Below, one piece after another: positions 2,396-8,794 of a stretch of 9,649 nucleotides of DNA (its first letter is position 1; every line of letters begins with the position of its first letter). The DNA is from a virus (lineage: Duplodnaviria > Heunggongvirae > Uroviricota > Caudoviricetes), in IMG/VR virus record IMGVR_UViG_3300014893_000026, positions 1-9,649 of that record, one strand, 5' to 3'. A model generated the notes under the pieces. That model saw only the letters and a program-made list of their open reading frames with translations. It searched no databases and was not told where the DNA came from. The position numbers were made by a program, and so were the translations under genes.

Positions 2396-2670
2396 GTGGT
2401 ACTTTTTGTGGGAGTCATCCACTTACGCACTTTGTTTTGCTATGCCAGCAGTTAGCTTCTGCTGTAAAACTATTCATGCAGCAAACCTGCACTTCACCAC
2501 AATGGTTAGCATACTTTTCCTGATTAAGTTATTGCCAAATATGCTGGCCATTGTTTCATGTATTGGACCTCCTTACTATTTATTAAAGAGATCCAATATT
2601 CACCACTCTGTCTGTATCTCCACTCAGGCATCAGCCTTCTTCGTTATCGTATACAGACAAACTATGAATT

Positions 2671-2886
2671 TTAATCAGTAATTATGACATTTGCTGCTGC
2701 AGGACCTTTAGCACCACTCTCTACAGAGAAGGTAACCTTTTGACCTTCAAATAAGGTTCGATAATTATCATTCTGAATCGCAGAAAAATGCACAAACACA
2801 TCTTTACTACCATCAACAGGAGAAATAAAGCCAAAACCTTTATCAGCGTTAAACCATTTTACTAAACCAGTCATTTTATTTGACAT
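2671..2886 (-). CDS. cspB: Cold-shock protein, CspA family
   Basis: 71 aa, [71 protein letters not shown], with RNP1-like KGFGFI and RNP2-like VFVHF motifs. Near-identical to my recollection of E. coli CspB. AAGGA 7 nt upstream of the ATG. Confidence 0.93.
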
Positions 2887-2941
2887 TCTACATTCCTTAA
2901 CTTGAGCCTTTCGGCATAAATGGCTTGTATAACAGAAACGA

Positions 2942-3100
2942 CTTCGTACTTAATTGGAGAGACTCAAAGAAGGAATAAGTGAATAACACCTGAAATGAGA
3001 ACTGCTTTAGTAAACTACTTCGTACTTAATTGGAGAGACTCAAAGAAGGAATAAGTGAATAACACCTGAAATGAGAACTGCTTTAGTAAACTACTTCGTA
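2942..3100. repeat. Perfect 76-bp tandem duplication (two full copies plus 7 bp of a third) in the cspB-cspF divergent intergenic region
   Basis: 2942-3017 and 3018-3093 are identical base for base (cttcgtacttaattggagagactcaaagaaggaataagtgaataacacctgaaatgagaactgctttagtaaacta); 3094-3100 restarts the unit (cttcgta) before diverging. Confidence 0.9.
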
Positions 3101-3262: not shown

Positions 3263-3475
3263 TTGTCCCGTAAAATGACAGGAATTCTCAAAACCTTTGA
3301 CGGCAAAAGCGGCAAAGGTCTTATAACCCCATCCGATGGTCGTATCGATGTCCAGCTTCATGTTTCAGCGCTCAATCTCCGCGATGCAGAAGAAATTACC
3401 ACCGGATTACGCGTGGAATTTTGCCGGATAAATGGTCTGCGTGGACCATCAGCTGCCAATGTTTACCTTTCATGA
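3263..3475 (+). CDS. cspF: Cold-shock-domain protein, CspA family (CspF-like)
   Basis: 70 aa, [70 protein letters not shown]. The conserved MS-x-KMTG N-terminus implies a TTG start at 3263 (AAGGA 6 nt upstream); ATG 3275 is the alternative. Divergent from cspB as in K-12 Qin. Confidence 0.85.
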
Positions 3476-3529
3476 GCTATATTAAAGCTTTAACTTCAAG
3501 TCCCATCGAATCAAACATGGAGAGTTTTC

Positions 3530-3619
3530 ATGAATAAACCCGTCTGTCTTGATGACTGGTTGATTGGCTTTAAAAGCTTATGCTGTACTTTGACCTTAAT
3601 AGCTCTGCTAATAATGTAA
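3530..3619 (+). CDS. Hypothetical 29-aa peptide downstream of cspF
   Basis: ATG 3530-3532 preceded by GGAGAG at 5-nt spacing; translation [29 protein letters not shown], stop TAA 3617-3619. Hydrophobic C-terminal half. Below the ORF-track cutoff. No terminator between cspF and this ORF; the first hairpin is at 3766-3791. Confidence 0.3.
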
Positions 3620-3763
3620 TAAGCAGACTCATTGTATCTATGGACATTGTACTGGAAGAAAACATTTTAAACATCAGGCAAAAAACAAAGTCACCCGATA
3701 AATAATAAGTAAACTAACATGAATCCCGTAATGAGATTCAACATCTCTATTACCCTATTTAAA

Positions 3764-3796
3764 GCACAAAAACCCGCTCATCAGCGGGTTTTCTAC
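3764..3796. terminator. tR'-like bidirectional intrinsic terminator
   Basis: AAAAACCCGCT-catc-AGCGGGTTTT (stem 3773-3778 / 3783-3788). The minus strand continues TTTTTGTGCTTT; the plus strand continues TTTTCTACTTTTT. Lies about 40-65 nt downstream of the predicted PR' start on the minus strand. Confidence 0.7.
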
Positions 3797-3837
3797 TTTT
3801 TCTTAACTTCGGGTATACAAAGCCCATCGTTGAAAAA

Positions 3838-3866
3838 ATTTTATCCATATTTTTTGAAAAATGCAA
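3838..3866 (-). promoter_or_regulatory. Late promoter PR'-like sigma70 promoter immediately downstream of Q
   Basis: On the minus strand: -35 TTGCAT (3861-3866), 17-nt spacer, -10 TAAAAT (3838-3843). Sits between the Q stop (3898) and the tR' hairpin, the standard lambdoid Q / PR' / qut / tR' layout. Confidence 0.6.
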
Positions 3867-3897
3867 GCATCACGTCGCCATCTTCGGCGAAAATCAC

Positions 3898-4650
3898 TTA
3901 TCTCGTCACCTTTCTCAATTGTGCTTCAGCGTAAGATTCCTCCTGCCAGCACTTTGTAACCAGTTTATCAATGACATTTGCATATCCTTTATACCACTGA
4001 TAATCACTCAGGTCCGGTACCAGCTTCTGGACATGATGCCGCGCCAGTGTGGTTGGTAAACGACTAAACCGTTTTCCATTGCAACGCCCACAAATCTTAT
4101 AAACAGGTGTGCCATGAAGCCGGGTCCTTTTTTCATCCAGGACAATACCTTTACCCTTACACCCTCTGCACGCTGTGCTGACTTCTCCCTTACCATGGCA
4201 ATGCTGACATAGTTCCTTCACCCACTCTTCTTTGATAACAGATTCCCCGCTTCTGGAGTGTTTCACCACTTCGCGCAATACATTATGAAATCCAGTACCA
4301 GCACAATGCTCACAACGAGCCTTACTTGCCGCAGACCTGGAATAATCAGCAAAGGCAAAATTCACAAGGTAAGGAATAATCTGTAGCCGGGTTTCTTCAC
4401 TCAATTTATTCAATGTCGGGTTATCCAGTGCCATCGCGTAATTGAGCAGACCTTCAATCGCAAACTGAGGATCCTGAACACCAACTTTTGCCAGGAATAA
4501 GGCAAACCCAAGCGGTGCTTTCGACTGCACCATCCCCTGCGCAGCCATCACATCCGTAATCGTTAAACCACCAGAGCCTGTCGCCGGTGCGTCATCACTC
4601 AATTTTGGAGATTTTGGGGAGTAATATTTTGGTAAGGCTTCAAGGTTCAT
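3898..4650 (-). CDS. quuQ: Late-gene antiterminator Q
   Basis: 250 aa with Cys/His clusters (CEHCAGTG, CQHCHGKG, CRGCKGKG, CGRCNGKR), directly upstream of PR'/tR'. Length and N-terminus (MNLEALPKYYSPKSPK...) match my recollection of K-12 QuuQ (YdfT). GGAGA 6 nt upstream of the ATG. Confidence 0.88.
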   Translation of the reverse strand: MNLEALPKYYSPKSPKLSDDAPATGSGGLTITDVMAAQGMVQSKAPLGFALFLAKVGVQDPQFAIEGLLNYAMALDNPTLNKLSEETRLQIIPYLVNFAFADYSRSAASKARCEHCAGTGFHNVLREVVKHSRSGESVIKEEWVKELCQHCHGKGEVSTACRGCKGKGIVLDEKRTRLHGTPVYKICGRCNGKRFSRLPTTLARHHVQKLVPDLSDYQWYKGYANVIDKLVTKCWQEESYAEAQLRKVTR

Positions 4651-4677
4651 GCTCGTTCTCCACTTACGCCAGTACGC

Positions 4678-5664
4678 CTATNNNNNNNNNNGCGCACGAT
4701 CGATAAAACGAAATATCAGCTCCAGCTGGGAGCCATACTTCTCTTCAAATGCCACGGTATCCGCATGCAGCTCGTCGTGATGCTTTCTGCACAAAGGCAA
4801 CACAAAAAGGTCATGCGCTTTTGTTCCCATTCCACCCTGACCGTGACCTGTCAGGTGGTGGGGATCATCTGCGGGCTTTCCACAACATGCACACTGCTGT
4901 GTCTTAACCCAGCGCGTGTACTTTTCATTAACCCAGCGGCGACGTTTTGGGCGTAACATAAAAGACTCCGGCGACTCCGGATCCACTTTCAGCGCCAGCA
5001 CCTTTTTCGCCTTATCCTGGATGATGCTGGTGGCAGGAACCGAAGGCACAAGGTCACTTTCCCGGGTGACAGACGGCACAACAGGCTTCGGTAATCTCAG
5101 TGCCTTACGGGCTGCGCTTTCCGGTAAGGCATCCGCCAGGTCATTACGAATCAGCCACCAGCACAGTTCCGGCATTGTCACAACGTGACTGTCATCAAAA
5201 CCGAGATCCCGACGCACAACAGACAACACCCAGCGGGCACAGTTATCCGTTGCCATTAATTCCAGCCGTTCCGTGAACTGATCGCGCAGCTGGTTATCAC
5301 AGTGCCAGCACAGACGGATTGCACCCGGCGCGTGTCGCATTGTGGTCATGTTCTCGCTGTGCCAGTCGGAATGAGGCCACTGGCAGCCTTTTTCACGAAG
5401 TAACCAGCTTTCAAGACATTCCACGCCACCAGCACGACGGATCACTGCCTCATTGCGGAACACGGCCCGAACGGCAGGATCATCCGCCAGCGGTTGTGAT
5501 ACCGCCGGAACGGCACCACTGGCGAAAGATGAATAACGTTCCGGCTCAGGCTCCAGCAGGACACGCCCCTGCATAAACAGGGGCATCAGTTCTGAACCTG
5601 GTCTGAACAATACGATCCCCATACGCGGGGCAATTTCAGGGGTCAGTAGTGCTCTCACGGTCAC
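4678..5664 (-). CDS. DUF968-like protein with C-terminal Cys/His-rich HNH-like motif (YdfU-like); 3' end interrupted by an assembly gap
   Basis: 328-codon ORF; C-terminal CACCGKP...HHLTGHG...CRKHHDELH resembles an HNH/zinc-binding module. Position after Q matches K-12 Qin ydfU (from memory). The last codons span the N-run 4682-4691, so the true C-terminus and stop are uncertain. Start is GTG 5662-5664 or the next GTG (5656-5658); GAGG is upstream. Confidence 0.65.
   Translation of the reverse strand: MTVRALLTPEIAPRMGIVLFRPGSELMPLFMQGRVLLEPEPERYSSFASGAVPAVSQPLADDPAVRAVFRNEAVIRRAGGVECLESWLLREKGCQWPHSDWHSENMTTMRHAPGAIRLCWHCDNQLRDQFTERLELMATDNCARWVLSVVRRDLGFDDSHVVTMPELCWWLIRNDLADALPESAARKALRLPKPVVPSVTRESDLVPSVPATSIIQDKAKKVLALKVDPESPESFMLRPKRRRWVNEKYTRWVKTQQCACCGKPADDPHHLTGHGQGGMGTKAHDLFVLPLCRKHHDELHADTVAFEEKYGSQLELIFRFIDRAXXXX
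4682..4691. other. Assembly gap (10 N)
   Basis: Run of 10 ambiguous bases between the DUF968 gene 3' end and the Q start codon. Confidence 0.99.
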
Positions 5665-5665
5665 C

Positions 5666-6481
5666 TCAATGAACGGTATCGAGCAGCTTTAACAGCTCAG
5701 GGAATCGGGATTCGAAGAAATGCGGCTGCGTCTCGCGCGGATTTGCAGGACTGGTGATGTTCTTGCCGAACATGCAGCCTTTCGCGGTCAGCGACCAGAA
5801 TTTTTTGATGTTGTTAATCGCGGTACGACTGTATCGTTCGCGTTGTTCAACGATCCCCAGCTTCGCCATCTGGTGATATGCCTGATTAGCCGTCAGGCGG
5901 ATACCATACTGCTTCAGCAGTGCACTCAGCGACAGCGTAGGGCGGCTTGAACCATCTGGCGCATCAGCAGGTGCATCAATGGCATAGATCGGCATAAGTT
6001 CAGGAAGACCAGCTACCTTTGATAATTTCTGGTATGCACCAAGTTTCGAGGAGTTTGACAGATTTAGAGTCTTTGCTGCTGATTCAAGCAGAATGACCCC
6101 GGATTTAATTTTGTCAGATGTGGTTTCTTCTGGTGATGAATTATGAAGCGCATCAAAAGTACGTATCACTTTTAAGCTGAATGCCGGGCTGATCCACATT
6201 GCATATGCATAGACCAGCTCTTTACAGACATACGTCCCACCATTGCGCCCCTGAATGGTGATGACAGGAATACTACGGGAATCTCCCGTAGTTTCTTCTT
6301 CCAATAATTCCACAAGAGCCTTCGTTTCAGGACGACGCATAAACTCGTGAACTTCCAGCGAACGGGAGGAGCGATTCTCACCAGCGGCAAGAAGAGCAGC
6401 TTTCTGAAGGTCGTTAAGACAGTAGTTAGATTCGAAGTACTGGCGCACAGAAACGCCATCAATTACAAGCAACTGATTCAT
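5666..6481 (-). CDS. KilA-N domain protein (Roi/antirepressor-like)
   Basis: ORF-track entry 5666..6493 starts at GTG; the likely start is ATG 6479-6481 (MNQLLVIDGVSVRQ...) with GGAGA 6 nt upstream. The N-terminal ~100 aa (GTYVCKELVYAYAMWISPAFSLKVIRTF) resemble the KilA-N DNA-binding domain. Stop is 1 nt from the DUF968 gene start. Confidence 0.78.
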   Translation of the reverse strand: MNQLLVIDGVSVRQYFESNYCLNDLQKAALLAAGENRSSRSLEVHEFMRRPETKALVELLEEETTGDSRSIPVITIQGRNGGTYVCKELVYAYAMWISPAFSLKVIRTFDALHNSSPEETTSDKIKSGVILLESAAKTLNLSNSSKLGAYQKLSKVAGLPELMPIYAIDAPADAPDGSSRPTLSLSALLKQYGIRLTANQAYHQMAKLGIVEQRERYSRTAINNIKKFWSLTAKGCMFGKNITSPANPRETQPHFFESRFPELLKLLDTVH

Positions 6482-6578
6482 TGGTTTCTCCACAAATTTT
6501 TATCCACGAGCGGGACTGCACTCCCTTTTCGTTGATGCAGGATGAACTTACTGCGATTTTTAATAGTTATCAAGGATA

Positions 6579-6598
6579 CACTGTTCATAAATACAGTA
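6579..6598. promoter_or_regulatory. Canonical LexA (SOS) box, CTGT-N8-ACAG
   Basis: caCTGTtcataaatACAGta: CTGT 6581-6584, 8-nt AT-rich spacer, ACAG 6593-6596. Lies in the 162-bp intergenic region between the rusA stop and the KilA-N start, about 100 bp upstream of the KilA-N ATG. Only CTGT-N8-ACAG match I found by eye in the window. Confidence 0.6.
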
Positions 6599-6643
6599 TC
6601 TTTAACGAGGTAATACCCAAATTTAGGGTGTTGCTCAATTCCG

Positions 6644-7039
6644 TTACCGAGTTGCTAATTTGCAACTCGCTTTTTCGTACTTACTGATAGTGATCTCGAC
6701 CTTCCCCTCCGGGATAACCGGTCCCCACTCCACCAGCATTCTTTTCACCTGACTGTCGTCTTCCCACACACCCGCGTGGGTCAGGGCGTCAAACAGCGCC
6801 TTGTTATAGTTGTCCAGATCGCGGATCCGGTTATCCGGAGGAAACAACACGATCTCCACTGAAGCAGGTGCCGACGTTGGTTTTGGCAGACGACGTAACT
6901 GCTCAACTATTGCTGCACACGCCGCGCTCTGGAATTTTCGCCCCGCCGCGCTTATCAGGCTCTTACCAGCAAACGCCCCTTTGTTGGGGTGTCGCCAGTA
7001 CGTGTTCACGCTGGGCGGAAAAGGCAGGATCAGCTTCAT
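6644..7039 (-). CDS. rusA: RusA-family Holliday junction resolvase
   Basis: 131 aa. LPFPPSVNTYWRH and RDLDNYNKALFDALTHAGVWEDDSQV match the recalled RusA motifs LPWPPSNNRYYRH and [26 protein letters not shown]. Start overlaps the upstream gene stop (ATGA). Confidence 0.85.
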   Translation of the reverse strand: MKLILPFPPSVNTYWRHPNKGAFAGKSLISAAGRKFQSAACAAIVEQLRRLPKPTSAPASVEIVLFPPDNRIRDLDNYNKALFDALTHAGVWEDDSQVKRMLVEWGPVIPEGKVEITISKYEKASCKLATR

Positions 7040-7362
7040 ACTTTCAGGCCCCTCTCATGTAACCAGTGGGCTGCACGCAGCCTGGCGTTTTCCTCACCGG
7101 CAAGCAGTGAGCGGATAATCCCGACCGCCTCGCTGTCGTCGTCCTTCACCACGGTATGAAGCGTGATCCCCCGGGCCACACCACGCTTTATCGTGATGAC
7201 GCCTTTTTTCTCCAGTGCGCGAAGATGCTCCACCGCTGCATTCACTGAACGGTATCCCAGCATGGTTGCCACCTCCTGATTGGTTGGCGGGAAGCCACGT
7301 TCTTTCTGATAAGAAATCAGCATATCCAGCACCTGCTGCTGGCATTGAGTTAACGTCGTCAT
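7036..7362 (-). CDS. LexA N-terminal DNA-binding-domain protein lacking the S24 peptidase domain
   Basis: Likely start ATG 7360-7362 (overlaps upstream stop, TAATG). MTTLTQCQQQVLDMLISYQKERGFPPTNQEVATMLGYRSVNAAVEHLRALEKKGVITIKRGVARGITL aligns along its length with recalled E. coli LexA residues ~1-70, including the recognition-helix region (GFRSPNAAEEHLKAL in LexA). Only ~40 further residues follow; no Ser/Lys peptidase domain. Confidence 0.75.
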   Translation of the reverse strand: MTTLTQCQQQVLDMLISYQKERGFPPTNQEVATMLGYRSVNAAVEHLRALEKKGVITIKRGVARGITLHTVVKDDDSEAVGIIRSLLAGEENARLRAAHWLHERGLKV

Positions 7363-7852: not shown

Positions 7853-8794
7853 TCACCCCCTGAATCCTGCCGGGATCTGGCTGTAGTCCACGTTGTCGTA
7901 ACTGGATTTGAAGTACGGGTCTTCGCGTTTTTCGGTGTACGTGCTGACGGACGGTGATAAGCGCAGGGAAAGCTCATCCCATTTTTCCCGCAACTTCGAC
8001 GGGCTGAGCACGTTACGGCACCAGAACGGATCGCGGTTGACGCGGCTGTACATCTCGCAGATTTGTTTGTGAGTACGACCATCCTGCACACACATCAGGC
8101 GAATTTCGTTTGCCCAGGCTGTCCAGTTCGGTTCTTTGGGACGAACCACCTCGCCGTCACATTCGGCGGCCTGCTCGTACAGGGCGATGATTTTTTTCCA
8201 GAGCCACTGTGCGCAGGTCAAATCATCCTGCGTTCCCCACTGGCGCTTTTTAGGGCTGAATACAACCGCATCAGGATGGCGAGTTAAAAACTCCTGTTCA
8301 GCCGTCTGCGTGTCCGGTTGCGAAGCGTCCGGACGAGAAGTATTTTTATCTGACGGATCATGTTTTGATTTTACTGACGGATCCCCGCCAGATTCTGACG
8401 GGTGAAAACCCGCTTTTTTGCCAGATTTCGACGCATCAAATTTTGACGGGTCAGATTTTGATGCGTCAGATTTTGACGGGTCAGAATCTGACAGTTGAGA
8501 AAATGCCGCTGCCTGAAGCTTCGCAACGTTAAGCTGATAAACATTCGACGCATTGCGGTTACCCTGGCGACGCGCCTTACGCGTTAACCAGCCTTCTGCT
8601 TCCAGCCGTGCGATAGCCGTTCTGACGGTACTCATCCCCGCGCCAATCTGGCGGGCAATGGTTTCAATTGATGGCCAGCACACACCTTCGTCATTACTGA
8701 AATCAGCCAGGCGGGCCATAATTGCCACGCTGGATAACTTCATGCCTGATGCAGCGCAACCATCCCATACATAGCCGGTTAATTTAGTGCTCAT
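7853..8794 (-). CDS. Phage replication initiation protein (O-like), N-terminal winged-helix domain, internal iteron-encoded linker
   Basis: 313 aa. The N-terminus (SVAIMARLADFSNDEGVCWPSIETIARQIGAGMSTVRTAIARLEAEGWL) looks like the HTH domain of phage replication initiators. The central low-complexity SDSDPSKSDASKSDPSKFDASKS region is encoded by tandem DNA repeats. AGAGG upstream of ATG 8792-8794. Confidence 0.7.
   Translation of the reverse strand: MSTKLTGYVWDGCAASGMKLSSVAIMARLADFSNDEGVCWPSIETIARQIGAGMSTVRTAIARLEAEGWLTRKARRQGNRNASNVYQLNVAKLQAAAFSQLSDSDPSKSDASKSDPSKFDASKSGKKAGFHPSESGGDPSVKSKHDPSDKNTSRPDASQPDTQTAEQEFLTRHPDAVVFSPKKRQWGTQDDLTCAQWLWKKIIALYEQAAECDGEVVRPKEPNWTAWANEIRLMCVQDGRTHKQICEMYSRVNRDPFWCRNVLSPSKLREKWDELSLRLSPSVSTYTEKREDPYFKSSYDNVDYSQIPAGFRG
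8340..8500. repeat. Iteron-like array of ~15-bp imperfect direct repeats inside the replication initiator gene (candidate origin)
   Basis: Recurring (T/C)TGACGG / TGA(C/T)GC cores at 8351, 8375, 8396, 8429, 8444, 8458, 8474 (e.g. cagattttgacgggt / cagattttgatgcgt / cagattttgacgggt), with a more AT-rich stretch at 8336-8375 on the gene-downstream side. Confidence 0.6.

What the first reader, a model, noticed from the sequence alone, without database searches (positions are those of the whole stretch)
6579..6598. Canonical SOS box upstream of a KilA-N / DUF968 / Q gene string
caCTGTtcataaatACAGta matches the LexA operator pattern (CTGT-N8-ACAG with AT-rich centre) and lies about 100 bp upstream of the KilA-N gene, in the only sizeable intergenic gap of the right-hand operon. 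KilA-N domains occur in phage antirepressors, and LexA-controlled antirepressors are an established induction route (coliphage 186 Tum, Gifsy prophages). The KilA-N, DUF968 and Q genes follow one another with 1-nt spacing (Q junction obscured by the gap), so an SOS-derepressed promoter here could also drive Q and therefore late/lysis genes, a possible repressor-independent link from DNA damage to lysis.
Basis: partly seen in the sequence, partly recalled or inferred. Interest (0 to 1): 0.7.

Follow-up and report, generated by a model that had tools for sequence, protein, structure and literature searches.

The report
LexA operator before prophage Q operon
A strong binding site for the bacterial DNA-damage repressor LexA sits next to a likely internal promoter of a lambda-like prophage, so DNA damage could switch on three phage genes, including the late-gene activator Q, independently of the phage's own repressor; this kind of wiring is known, and here it is predicted, not tested.

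Summary
Window 6579-6598 reads TACTGTATTTATGAACAGTG on the coding (minus) strand. It scores as well as the recA and sulA operators. It is the only such site in the window and in a 45-kb sister phage.

It lies in a 165-nt gap between rusA and a KilA-N gene. KilA-N, DUF968/HNH and Q follow with 1-13 nt spacings and no convincing terminator.

Nine diverged relatives share a TAnnnT -10 hexamer at a fixed distance from a conserved leader hairpin. In the window this gives TTGATA-17-TAAGTT, which puts the box at -60 to -41. LexA-like boxes recur upstream of orthologous KilA-N genes in other genera (5 of 18, against 0.5% of background windows).

Most likely this is a host-LexA-repressed internal promoter for KilA-N-DUF968-Q.

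The antirepressor reading is not supported:
- the sister phage's CI carries a self-cleaving S24 domain;
- the KilA-N protein resembles no known antirepressor;
- many relatives have the gene with no promoter gap.

Two extras were found. A phage-encoded LexA homologue with only the DNA-binding domain lies two genes upstream, which parallels phage GIL01. A covarying RNA hairpin with a UGCAG loop sits in the leader. Nothing has been tested experimentally.

The parts
6579..6598 (.). LexA (SOS) box; minus strand reads TACTGTATTTATGAACAGTG
   Evidence: Heterology index 4.4, unique in the window. Conserved in 186 E. coli genomes and in SfIV/PhiR49_1.
6568..6573 (-). Predicted -35 hexamer TTGATA of the KilA-N promoter, 5 nt downstream of the box
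   Evidence: Read from the sequence. TTGAAG, TTGAAA, TTGAAT and TTGCTA occupy the same column in Raoultella, Leclercia and Kluyvera relatives.
6545..6550 (-). Predicted -10 hexamer TAAGTT, 17-nt spacer; predicted start about 6538, which puts the box at -60 to -41
   Evidence: T, A and final T are invariant in 9 diverged leaders, always 19 nt before the hairpin's GGG. Promoter activity is inferred, not shown. The consensus scan tool did not call it, because its threshold is 4 of 6 matches in each hexamer.
6610..6638 (-). Alternative weaker promoter upstream of the box: TTGAGC (6638-6633), 17 nt, TATTAC (6615-6610). The box would then lie at about +6 to +25.
   Evidence: Read from the sequence. 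Not conserved in relatives, where this stretch is rusA coding sequence. It lacks the final T of the -10.
6506..6532 (-). Leader RNA hairpin: outer stem ACGA/TCGT, inner stem GGGA/TCCC, loop GUGCAG (6521-6516)
   Evidence: Stems covary and the UGCAG loop is invariant across genera. G-U pairs occur but not A-C, so it forms on the sense strand. No Rfam match.
5666..6481 (-). KilA-N domain protein gene (271 aa; GGAG Shine-Dalgarno at 6491-6488)
4664..5664 (-). DUF968 / HNH-type nuclease gene. A 10-N mask at 4682-4691 stands for 5 nt (TGGCA) in relatives; stop TAA at 4666-4664.
   Evidence: Pfam DUF968 5.8e-76 and HNHc_6. PHROG 96 HNH endonuclease. Junction read from relatives. Follows the KilA-N gene in 32 of the 38 full-length loci compared, L010-L047.
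3898..4650 (-). Antiterminator Q gene, 13 nt after the DUF968 stop
   Evidence: Pfam Antiterm 1.5e-53. Junction. No convincing minus-strand terminator between 6540 and 3900.
7036..7362 (-). Phage-encoded LexA homologue with only the DNA-binding domain (108 aa; no S24 cleavage domain)
   Evidence: Pfam LexA_DNA_bind 3.7e-19. Aligns residue for residue with E. coli LexA 2-69 (1LEA, E 7.5e-16). S39, N41, A42, A43 and R64 are kept; E44 is V.
6644..7039 (-). RusA Holliday-junction resolvase gene. Its last ~30 nt are the mosaic junction with the no-gap phage type.
   Evidence: Pfam RusA; alignment.
6648..6669 (.). Palindrome CGAGTTGCTAATTTGCAACTCG over the rusA stop. It is terminator-like only on the + strand.
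   Evidence: A near copy lies inside the KilA-N gene of SfII and Stx2a_1447.
3769..3792 (.). Strong bidirectional terminator about 110 nt after Q; a candidate tR' that Q would override
   Evidence: The role is inferred from the lambda layout.

Best explanation
The site is a genuine operator for the host SOS repressor LexA, placed beside an internal sigma-70 promoter in the early-right operon of an SfIV/PhiR49_1-type lambdoid prophage. The most likely geometry is: box, 5 nt, TTGATA, 17 nt, TAAGTT, start near 6538. A LexA dimer then occupies -60 to -41. From there it would block the alpha-subunit/UP-element region and crowd the -35, as described for the CTX-phi PrstA promoter. In an undamaged lysogen, pR is shut by CI and this promoter is shut by LexA. 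After DNA damage LexA is cleaved, and a CI-independent transcript starts just before a conserved 5' hairpin and runs through KilA-N, DUF968/HNH and Q. This adds an SOS-specific input to the supply of Q and of a DNA-binding/nuclease pair, on top of read-through from pR. Shown: the site's quality and uniqueness, its conservation, the recurrence of LexA-like boxes at orthologous genes, the -10 footprint and the operon packing. Inferred: LexA binding, promoter activity, the mode of repression, read-through to Q and any effect on lysis.
For: Site quality equals bona fide operators, and no random window matched it. It is the only strong box in the window and in the 45-kb sister phage PhiR49_1. It is identical or improved (final G to A, index 3.4) in 186 of 5426 complete E. 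coli genomes and in Shigella phage SfIV. Among 18 gap-type KilA-N loci from other genera, 5 have a box with index <=10 and 8 have one <=13 within 200 nt upstream. Background 200-nt windows reach those values in 0.5% and 1.6% of cases. In Erwinia the box overlaps a good promoter, TTGCCA-17-TATATT. Nine diverged leaders share TAnnnT at a fixed 19 nt from the hairpin. In 6 of the 9 (the window's E. coli type, K. georgiana, Leclercia, Kosakonia, L132, Raoultella) a LexA-like site ends exactly 28 nt before it; it is strong only in the E. coli type and index 8-14 in the others, while Kluyvera STS39 and C. farmeri have none. Genes downstream are spaced 1-13 nt apart with no convincing terminator. Box-to-ATG distances of 65-236 nt occur among validated SOS genes (PMC8072944). 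Sister prophages carry further strong boxes: the O104:H4 prophage has three in 12 kb, and SfII has one with index 1.0. Precedents: a LexA box in the nin-equivalent region of Gifsy prophages (PMC3121763), and LexA acting from upstream of -35 (Quinones et al. 2006 JBC; citation seen, content recalled from memory).
Against: No experiment bears on it. The promoter is modest (8 of 12 matches), and the consensus scanner did not call it. A box centred at -50 is unusual for E. coli SOS genes. In most relatives one half-site is imperfect ((G/T/A)TG instead of CTG) and the index is 8-14, weaker than any known site in my matrix. The TAnnnT conservation could belong to the RNA leader rather than to a -10. 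The matrix was built from sites recalled from memory. The orthologous loci are not phylogenetically independent, so the binomial P values overstate significance. LexA-independent Q expression in a lysogen would be suicidal, which argues that the promoter is weak or has a further gate.
Confidence: 0.6

Rival explanations
1. The box is used mainly, or also, by the phage's own truncated LexA homologue (7362-7039), which is made from pR two genes upstream. Once host LexA is gone, this protein either re-closes the promoter, giving a pulse, or activates it from its position next to the -35. The second option is what gp6 does at the late promoter P3 of phage GIL01.
For: The 108-aa protein aligns with LexA residues 2-69 and keeps S39, N41, A42, A43 and R64. 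All window-type leaders examined sit downstream of such a gene. Weak -35 hexamers in some relatives (ATGCTC) would suit an activator. GIL01 combines host LexA boxes with a truncated LexA homologue that activates late genes (PMC6182141).
Against: Phages with the same LexA-like gene but no gap and no box exist (SfII, mEp460, Stx2a_1447). Serratia, Rahnella, Erwinia and Rosenbergiella have boxes but no such gene within 2.5 kb. Positions 44-46 of the recognition helix vary among the phage proteins without a clear match to half-site variants. The window's box is closer to the host consensus than its relatives' boxes are. Dimerisation of the protein is unknown.
Confidence: 0.15
2. One reading: the KilA-N protein is an SOS-induced antirepressor that inactivates CI and so triggers prophage induction, as in 186 Tum, N15 AntC and Gifsy GfoA/GftA.
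For: A LexA box lies upstream, outside the immunity region, in the same relative place as the Gifsy box. Some annotated antirepressors carry KilA-N/Bro-N type N-terminal domains (general knowledge).
Against: CI of the sister phage has a Peptidase_S24 domain with an AG / GDSM / KR layout. There is no sequence or fold similarity to any known antirepressor. The gene is an ordinary promoter-less early gene in many relatives. It is paired with a DUF968/HNH gene in 32 of the 38 full-length loci compared, which points to DNA transactions.
Confidence: 0.08
3. The box is a chance or relic palindrome that arrived with a mosaic module and has no regulatory role in this prophage.
For: The core pattern alone appears in about 12% of shuffled windows. 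The module is a mosaic insert bounded at the rusA 3' end. Within E. coli the sequence is too similar for conservation to be informative. Two related leaders lack any box (Kluyvera STS39, Citrobacter farmeri).
Against: The full 20-mer score was never reached in 200 random windows. Boxes recur at orthologous loci in several genera and at a fixed offset from the -10. The one change seen in E. coli and Shigella variants improves the match.
Confidence: 0.1
4. The box controls a plus-strand (antisense) promoter. Its short RNA would end at the terminator-like hairpin at 6648-6669 and act against the rusA 3' end, in the manner of the lambda oop RNA.
For: A hairpin followed by a T-run, oriented for the plus strand, lies 50 nt from the box. 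LexA control of lambda oop is recalled from memory.
Against: No acceptable plus-strand -35/-10 pair lies near the box (and reading). The conserved elements (-10, hairpin with G-U pairs, Shine-Dalgarno) are all on the minus strand. The hairpin is not present in relatives with shorter gaps.
Confidence: 0.03

Closest known systems
LexA-controlled dinI/antirepressor locus of Salmonella Gifsy prophages (Lemire et al. 2011, PMC3121763)
   Same: A canonical LexA box with its own promoter sits in the nin-equivalent region, downstream of the replication genes and outside the immunity region of a lambdoid prophage. A palindrome precedes it.
   Different: Gifsy repressors are not cleaved, and the regulated genes are dinI plus a small antirepressor. 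Here CI is of the self-cleaving type, and the regulated genes are KilA-N, DUF968/HNH and Q. The preceding palindrome is not terminator-like on the sense strand.
CTX-phi PrstA promoter (Quinones et al. 2006, J Biol Chem 281:39407)
   Same: The LexA site lies just upstream of the -35 of a phage promoter, and repression is by excluding the RNA polymerase alpha C-terminal domain. This is the geometry predicted here (-60 to -41).
   Different: CTX-phi is a filamentous phage of Vibrio in which LexA acts together with RstR. No UP element has been shown here. Only the citation was verified; the content is recalled from memory.
GIL01 late promoter P3: host LexA boxes plus gp6, a truncated LexA homologue (Fornelos et al. 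2018, PMC6182141)
   Same: The phage carries host-type LexA boxes at a promoter governing late functions. It also encodes a LexA homologue reduced to the DNA-binding domain (window 7362-7039).
   Different: GIL01 is a tectivirus of Bacillus with no CI; LexA with gp7 is its lysogeny repressor, and gp6 binds over the -35. Here the target of the homologue is unknown, and late genes would be reached indirectly through Q.
Coliphage 186 tum and N15 antC (LexA-repressed antirepressor genes)
   Same: A prophage gene outside the immunity region stands behind a LexA box, so that SOS reaches the phage through LexA.
   Different: Those products are antirepressors of non-cleavable repressors. No evidence points to that activity here.

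Membership tests
Gammaproteobacterial LexA operator (SOS box) | Palindrome CTGT-N8-ACAG with an AT-rich centre and TA/TA-type flanks | tested here: met
   TACTGTATTTATGAACAGTG.
Gammaproteobacterial LexA operator (SOS box) | Similarity score within the range of experimentally proven operators | tested here: met
   Heterology index 4.4, against 1.0-9.8 for the 30 reference sites. 0 of 200 random windows reached it. The matrix was built from sites recalled from memory.
Gammaproteobacterial LexA operator (SOS box) | Position within or next to a promoter | tested here: inconclusive
   The box is adjacent to a comparatively supported TTGATA-17-TAAGTT promoter, but the promoter is unmapped and was not called by the scanner.
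Gammaproteobacterial LexA operator (SOS box) | LexA binding, and RecA/LexA-dependent induction of the downstream gene | not testable with these tools
   Needs EMSA or footprinting, ChIP, and reporters in lexA(Ind-) and lexA(Def) hosts.
LexA-controlled antirepressor module (186 Tum, N15 AntC, Gifsy GfoA/GftA) | The prophage repressor lacks RecA-stimulated self-cleavage | tested here: not met
   CI of PhiR49_1 (99.7% identical in this region) has Peptidase_S24, E 1.5e-26. The window itself does not include cI.
LexA-controlled antirepressor module (186 Tum, N15 AntC, Gifsy GfoA/GftA) | The regulated product is related to a known antirepressor, or is a small repressor-binding protein | tested here: not met
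LexA-controlled antirepressor module (186 Tum, N15 AntC, Gifsy GfoA/GftA) | The gene has its own LexA-controlled promoter in all members | tested here: not met
   Many relatives have the KilA-N gene 19 nt after rusA, with no gap and no box.
KilA-N domain proteins (PF04383) | Profile match above the curated cut-off, and an APSES-like fold | tested here: met
GIL01-type dual control by host LexA and a truncated phage LexA homologue | The phage encodes a LexA homologue consisting of the DNA-binding domain only | tested here: met
   108 aa with LexA_DNA_bind and no S24 domain.
GIL01-type dual control by host LexA and a truncated phage LexA homologue | The homologue binds at the LexA-controlled promoter and changes its activity | not testable with these tools
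   Co-occurrence is only partial.

The most novel reading that the evidence does not exclude
The box is shared by two LexA-family proteins. Host LexA keeps the KilA-N/DUF968/Q promoter shut in the lysogen. After damage, the phage's uncleavable DNA-binding-domain-only LexA homologue, made from pR two genes upstream, takes over the same site and perhaps host SOS boxes as well. It would then either activate the promoter or re-close it. The conserved UGCAG-loop RNA hairpin would add a post-transcriptional gate. This would be a Gram-negative, lambdoid counterpart of the GIL01 LexA/gp6 timer, and it would set when Q, and hence lysis or cargo genes downstream of Q, come on.
Probability: 0.15. Interest if true: 0.8.

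Novelty: new member of a known kind. Interest (0 to 1): 0.5.

Why it matters
If the promoter is real, this prophage family receives the SOS signal twice: through CI self-cleavage, and through LexA directly upstream of Q. LexA is cleaved faster and at lower damage than lambda-type repressors (general knowledge). A LexA-gated supply of Q could therefore shorten the delay to late-gene expression on induction. It could distinguish induction from fresh infection. In defective or CI-non-inducible prophages it could express genes downstream of Q without full induction.

The module is in 3.4% of complete E. coli genomes, including an O104:H4 prophage, and in Shigella serotype-converting phage SfIV. 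Close relatives of the gene string are in Stx2 phages, which lack the box. That gives a natural comparison for testing whether the box changes induction kinetics.

The truncated LexA homologue and the UGCAG hairpin are uncharacterised, widespread and testable with simple reporters.

Tried and rejected
- **Consensus promoter scan of 6300-6900:** found nothing. The promoter call therefore rests on comparative footprinting.
- **Single-sequence folding of the leader:** not better than shuffles, z = -0.64. The hairpin rests on covariation only.
- **Rfam at E <= 1:** gave no family in the gap.
- **Literature searches** for this box, for KilA-N with LexA, and for DUF968: found no description.
- **The O104:H4 locus:** I first suspected the Stx2a prophage. 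It is a different, stx-less lambdoid prophage.
- **A 37-codon upstream ORF** starting inside the box and ending in an ATGA overlap with KilA-N: rejected. It has no Shine-Dalgarno, and an 11-nt indel in relatives breaks the frame.
- **The hairpin as an intrinsic terminator:** rejected, because no U-run follows it in any lineage.
- **The hairpin as a sigma-54 promoter (TTGCA):** rejected. The GG-to-GC spacing is wrong and the stems covary.
- **The hairpin as a nut-like site present in both early operons:** left open. A similar hairpin lies before yfdP in PhiR49_1 and, with a different stem, in ST64B. This is only two sequences, and 5-bp stems around TGCAG are common by chance.
- **PADLOC and NCBIfam:** gave nothing decisive for KilA-N or DUF968.
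- **Covariance model of the hairpin:** not built, because a 22-nt, 5-bp model would carry too little information for a meaningful search.

Full report
**Context**

All the relevant genes are on the minus strand. Together they form the early-right arm of a lambdoid prophage:
- a CP76-type cII-like gene (9645-9142);
- a DUF4222 ORF;
- an O-like replication gene with 15-nt iterons;
- a PerC-domain gene;
- a 108-aa protein that is only a LexA DNA-binding domain (7362-7039);
- rusA (7039-6644);
- a 165-nt gap;
- a KilA-N gene (6481-5666);
- a DUF968/HNH gene;
- Q (4650-3898);
- then csp genes, a holin and a lysozyme.

The closest deposited phages are Escherichia phage PhiR49_1 (99.7% over 1.5 kb) and Shigella phage SfIV (98.9%).

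**The observation**

The 20-mer at 6579-6598 is as described. The bare CTGT-N8-ACAG pattern is only mildly unlikely: 0.12 are expected, and 23 of 200 shuffles contain one.

The whole 20-mer is a different matter. I built a heterology index from 30 E. coli LexA sites recalled from memory.
- The site scores 4.4. recA scores 4.9 and sulA 4.0.
- The runner-up in the window scores 11.2.
- The best of 200 composition-matched random windows scores 7.4.
- It is also the only strong site in the whole 45-kb PhiR49_1 genome.

**Distribution and the two architectures**

The 221-nt gap module is in 186 of 5426 complete E. coli genomes, always chromosomal. One carrier is a stx-less lambdoid prophage of O104:H4. 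Within E. coli and Shigella the box is invariant, except for a final G to A change that improves the score to 3.4.

Many close relatives have no gap at all. In SfII, mEp460 and the Stx2a/Stx2c phages the KilA-N gene starts 19 nt after rusA. Homology with the window breaks in the last ~30 nt of rusA. The box therefore travels with a mosaic module made of a regulatory gap plus a KilA-N N-terminal variant.

**Comparative test of the box**

I fetched KilA-N relatives from species-representative genomes and separated them by gap length. Eighteen loci from other genera have gaps of 100 nt or more.
- Five have a LexA-like site with index <=10 within 200 nt upstream: Edwardsiella 5.9, Raoultella 8.3, Erwinia 8.5, Rosenbergiella 9.7 and Serratia 9.8.
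- Eight have one with index <=13.
- The same thresholds are met by 0.5% and 1.6% of other 200-nt windows in the same loci.

The loci share ancestry, so the binomial P values (about 1e-8) are overstated. The leaders are otherwise highly diverged, however. Most of these sites have one perfect half-site and one with (G/T/A)TG in place of CTG. The window's version is the best in the family.

**The promoter**

The consensus scanner found no promoter in the gap. I therefore aligned nine leaders of the window's subfamily: E. coli (2), Kluyvera (2), Leclercia, Kosakonia, Raoultella, Citrobacter and a viral contig.
- They share a hexamer TAnnnT (TAAGTT, TAATGT, TAAGGT, TAATCT, TATGGT). Its T, A and final T are invariant, and it always lies 19 nt before the leader hairpin.
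- In five of the nine (the two E. coli, Leclercia, Raoultella, Kluyvera STS39) a TTGA-type hexamer lies 17 nt upstream; K. georgiana has TTGCTA there.
- One sequence with a poor -35 has a TG extended -10.
- In the window this reads TTGATA (6573-6568), 17 nt, TAAGTT (6550-6545). The start is predicted near 6538.
- The LexA-like site ends exactly 28 nt before the -10 in the window, K. georgiana, Leclercia, Kosakonia, L132 and Raoultella. That places it at -60 to -41.
- In the Erwinia, Serratia and Rahnella subfamily the box instead overlaps the -10. The clearest case is Erwinia, with TTGCCA-17-TATATT.
- A second, weaker candidate in the window (TTGAGC 6638-6633, TATTAC 6615-6610) would put the box at +6 to +25. 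It is not conserved.

Repression from just upstream of the -35 has a precedent in CTX-phi PrstA, where LexA blocks the alpha C-terminal domain. I verified that citation; the content is from memory.

**What would be transcribed**

KilA-N and DUF968 are 1-7 nt apart. The 10-N mask at 4682-4691 replaces 5 nt in relatives. The DUF968 stop (4666-4664) is 13 nt from the Q ATG. Only weak terminator-like hits inside coding sequence lie on the minus strand between 6540 and 3900. A strong bidirectional terminator follows Q at 3769-3792, where tR' would be expected. A transcript from the gap should therefore cover KilA-N, DUF968 and Q.

**What the proteins are**

A DUF968/HNH gene follows the KilA-N gene in 32 of the 38 full-length loci compared, from Escherichia to Proteus and Gilliamella. 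DUF968 proteins have been described as Orf-like DNA-binding domains fused to an HNH nuclease (PMC4118853). CI of PhiR49_1 carries a Peptidase_S24 domain.

These facts, together with the promoter-less relatives, argue against the antirepressor reading. They favour a role in DNA transactions or gene regulation during lytic growth.

**The phage LexA homologue**

The 108-aa product of 7362-7039 aligns with E. coli LexA residues 2-69 (E 7.5e-16). It keeps S39, N41, A42, A43 and R64, and lacks the cleavage and catalytic domain.

Every window-type leader examined lies downstream of such a gene. The gene also occurs in phages without the box, and several genera have boxes without the gene. Host LexA is therefore the economical binder.

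The parallel with GIL01 keeps a two-protein model alive. In GIL01, host LexA boxes and the truncated homologue gp6 jointly time late genes (PMC6182141).

**The leader hairpin**

Between the predicted start and the Shine-Dalgarno lies a two-tier hairpin (6532-6506) with loop GUGCAG.
- Across genera the loop UGCAG is invariant while the stems change: GGGA/TCCC, GGGC/GCCC, GTCGG/CCGAC, TTCAT/ATGAG, GGCGG/CCGCC, AGCGGGA/TTCCGCT and others.
- Eighteen of 22 loci have a stem of 4 bp or more around a TGCAG 30-100 nt before the ATG. Only 12.6% of 1171 background TGCAG occurrences do.
- Stems tolerate G-U but not A-C, so the structure belongs to the sense RNA.
- On 16 sequences, 93.8% of cells pair against 53.5% in shuffles. 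All five pairs show double changes, and slid registers fall to 30-51%. I chose those 16 sequences, so this overstates the case somewhat.
- The hairpin is present even in the no-gap phages, inside the last rusA codons.
- It is not a terminator and is not in Rfam.
- Its function is unknown. A 5' stabiliser, a processing site or a protein operator are the obvious candidates.

**Verdict**

The site is very probably a working LexA operator at an internal promoter for KilA-N-DUF968-Q (confidence 0.6).

This is a new member of a known kind, namely LexA-gated prophage genes. It has two uncommon features worth an experiment: Q lies in the regulated unit, and a truncated LexA homologue is encoded next door.

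Noticed in passing
window 6506-6532 (minus strand): A conserved RNA hairpin with an invariant UGCAG loop and covarying stems lies 30-50 nt before KilA-N start codons in Enterobacterales and Orbales. It is also present inside the rusA 3' end of the no-gap phages. It is not in Rfam and its function is unknown.
   Followed up: partly
window 7036-7362 (minus strand): The phage encodes a 108-aa LexA homologue that is only the DNA-binding domain. The recognition-helix residues S39, N41, A42, A43 and the wing residue R64 are conserved, while positions 44-46 vary among relatives. It is widespread in SfII, SfIV, mEp460 and Stx2 phages, and no study of it was found.
   Followed up: partly
L009 844, 6063, 10453; L185 29167: Sister prophages carry further near-perfect LexA boxes. 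One lies inside the linker-coding part of the cI-type repressor gene (SfII index 1.0; O104:H4 prophage 2.4). Another lies at the start of a DNA methyltransferase gene downstream of Q (index 3.8).
   Followed up: no
window 4682-4691: A run of 10 N stands where relatives have 5 nt (TGGCA). The listed DUF968 ORF end is therefore an artefact; the real stop is TAA at 4666-4664.
   Followed up: yes
window 6648-6690; L002/L006 about 2150-2180: The mosaic junction with the no-gap phage type falls in the last ~30 nt of rusA. The palindrome over the rusA stop (GAGTTGCAAATTAGCAACTC) has a near copy inside the KilA-N gene of SfII and Stx2a_1447. CAGTAAGT occurs both at the rusA end and at the predicted -10.
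   Followed up: no
L183 4000-4031 (minus strand); L184 331-366: The leader of yfdP in the leftward arm of PhiR49_1 contains the same 16 nt as the KilA-N ribosome-binding region (TTTGTGGAGAAACCAA). A CGACC-TTGCAG-GGTCG hairpin follows it. ST64B has the same 16 nt followed by a hairpin with a different stem and a UGGCAA loop. This may be a second copy of the motif.
   Followed up: partly
L183 4060-4110: A stretch next to the putative pL region of PhiR49_1 matches annotated tRNA genes of Klebsiella phages. It looks like a tRNA fragment.
   Followed up: no
window 2608-3100 (minus strand): There is a full-length match to the cspA thermoregulator (142.7 bits) upstream of a cold-shock gene. A 76-nt tandem duplication (2.2 copies, 98% identical) overlaps its 5' part at 2936-3100.
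   Followed up: no
window 8422-8485: About four 15-nt iterons (CAGATTTTGACGGGT) lie inside the O-like replication gene and are the likely origin of replication. They also produced a spurious microRNA hit in Rfam.
   Followed up: no
window 6272-6292 and 6648-6669 (plus strand): Terminator-like hairpins oriented against the operon. The scan found 9 terminator-like sites in 3300-6700, against 3.0 +/- 1.5 in shuffles.
   Followed up: no
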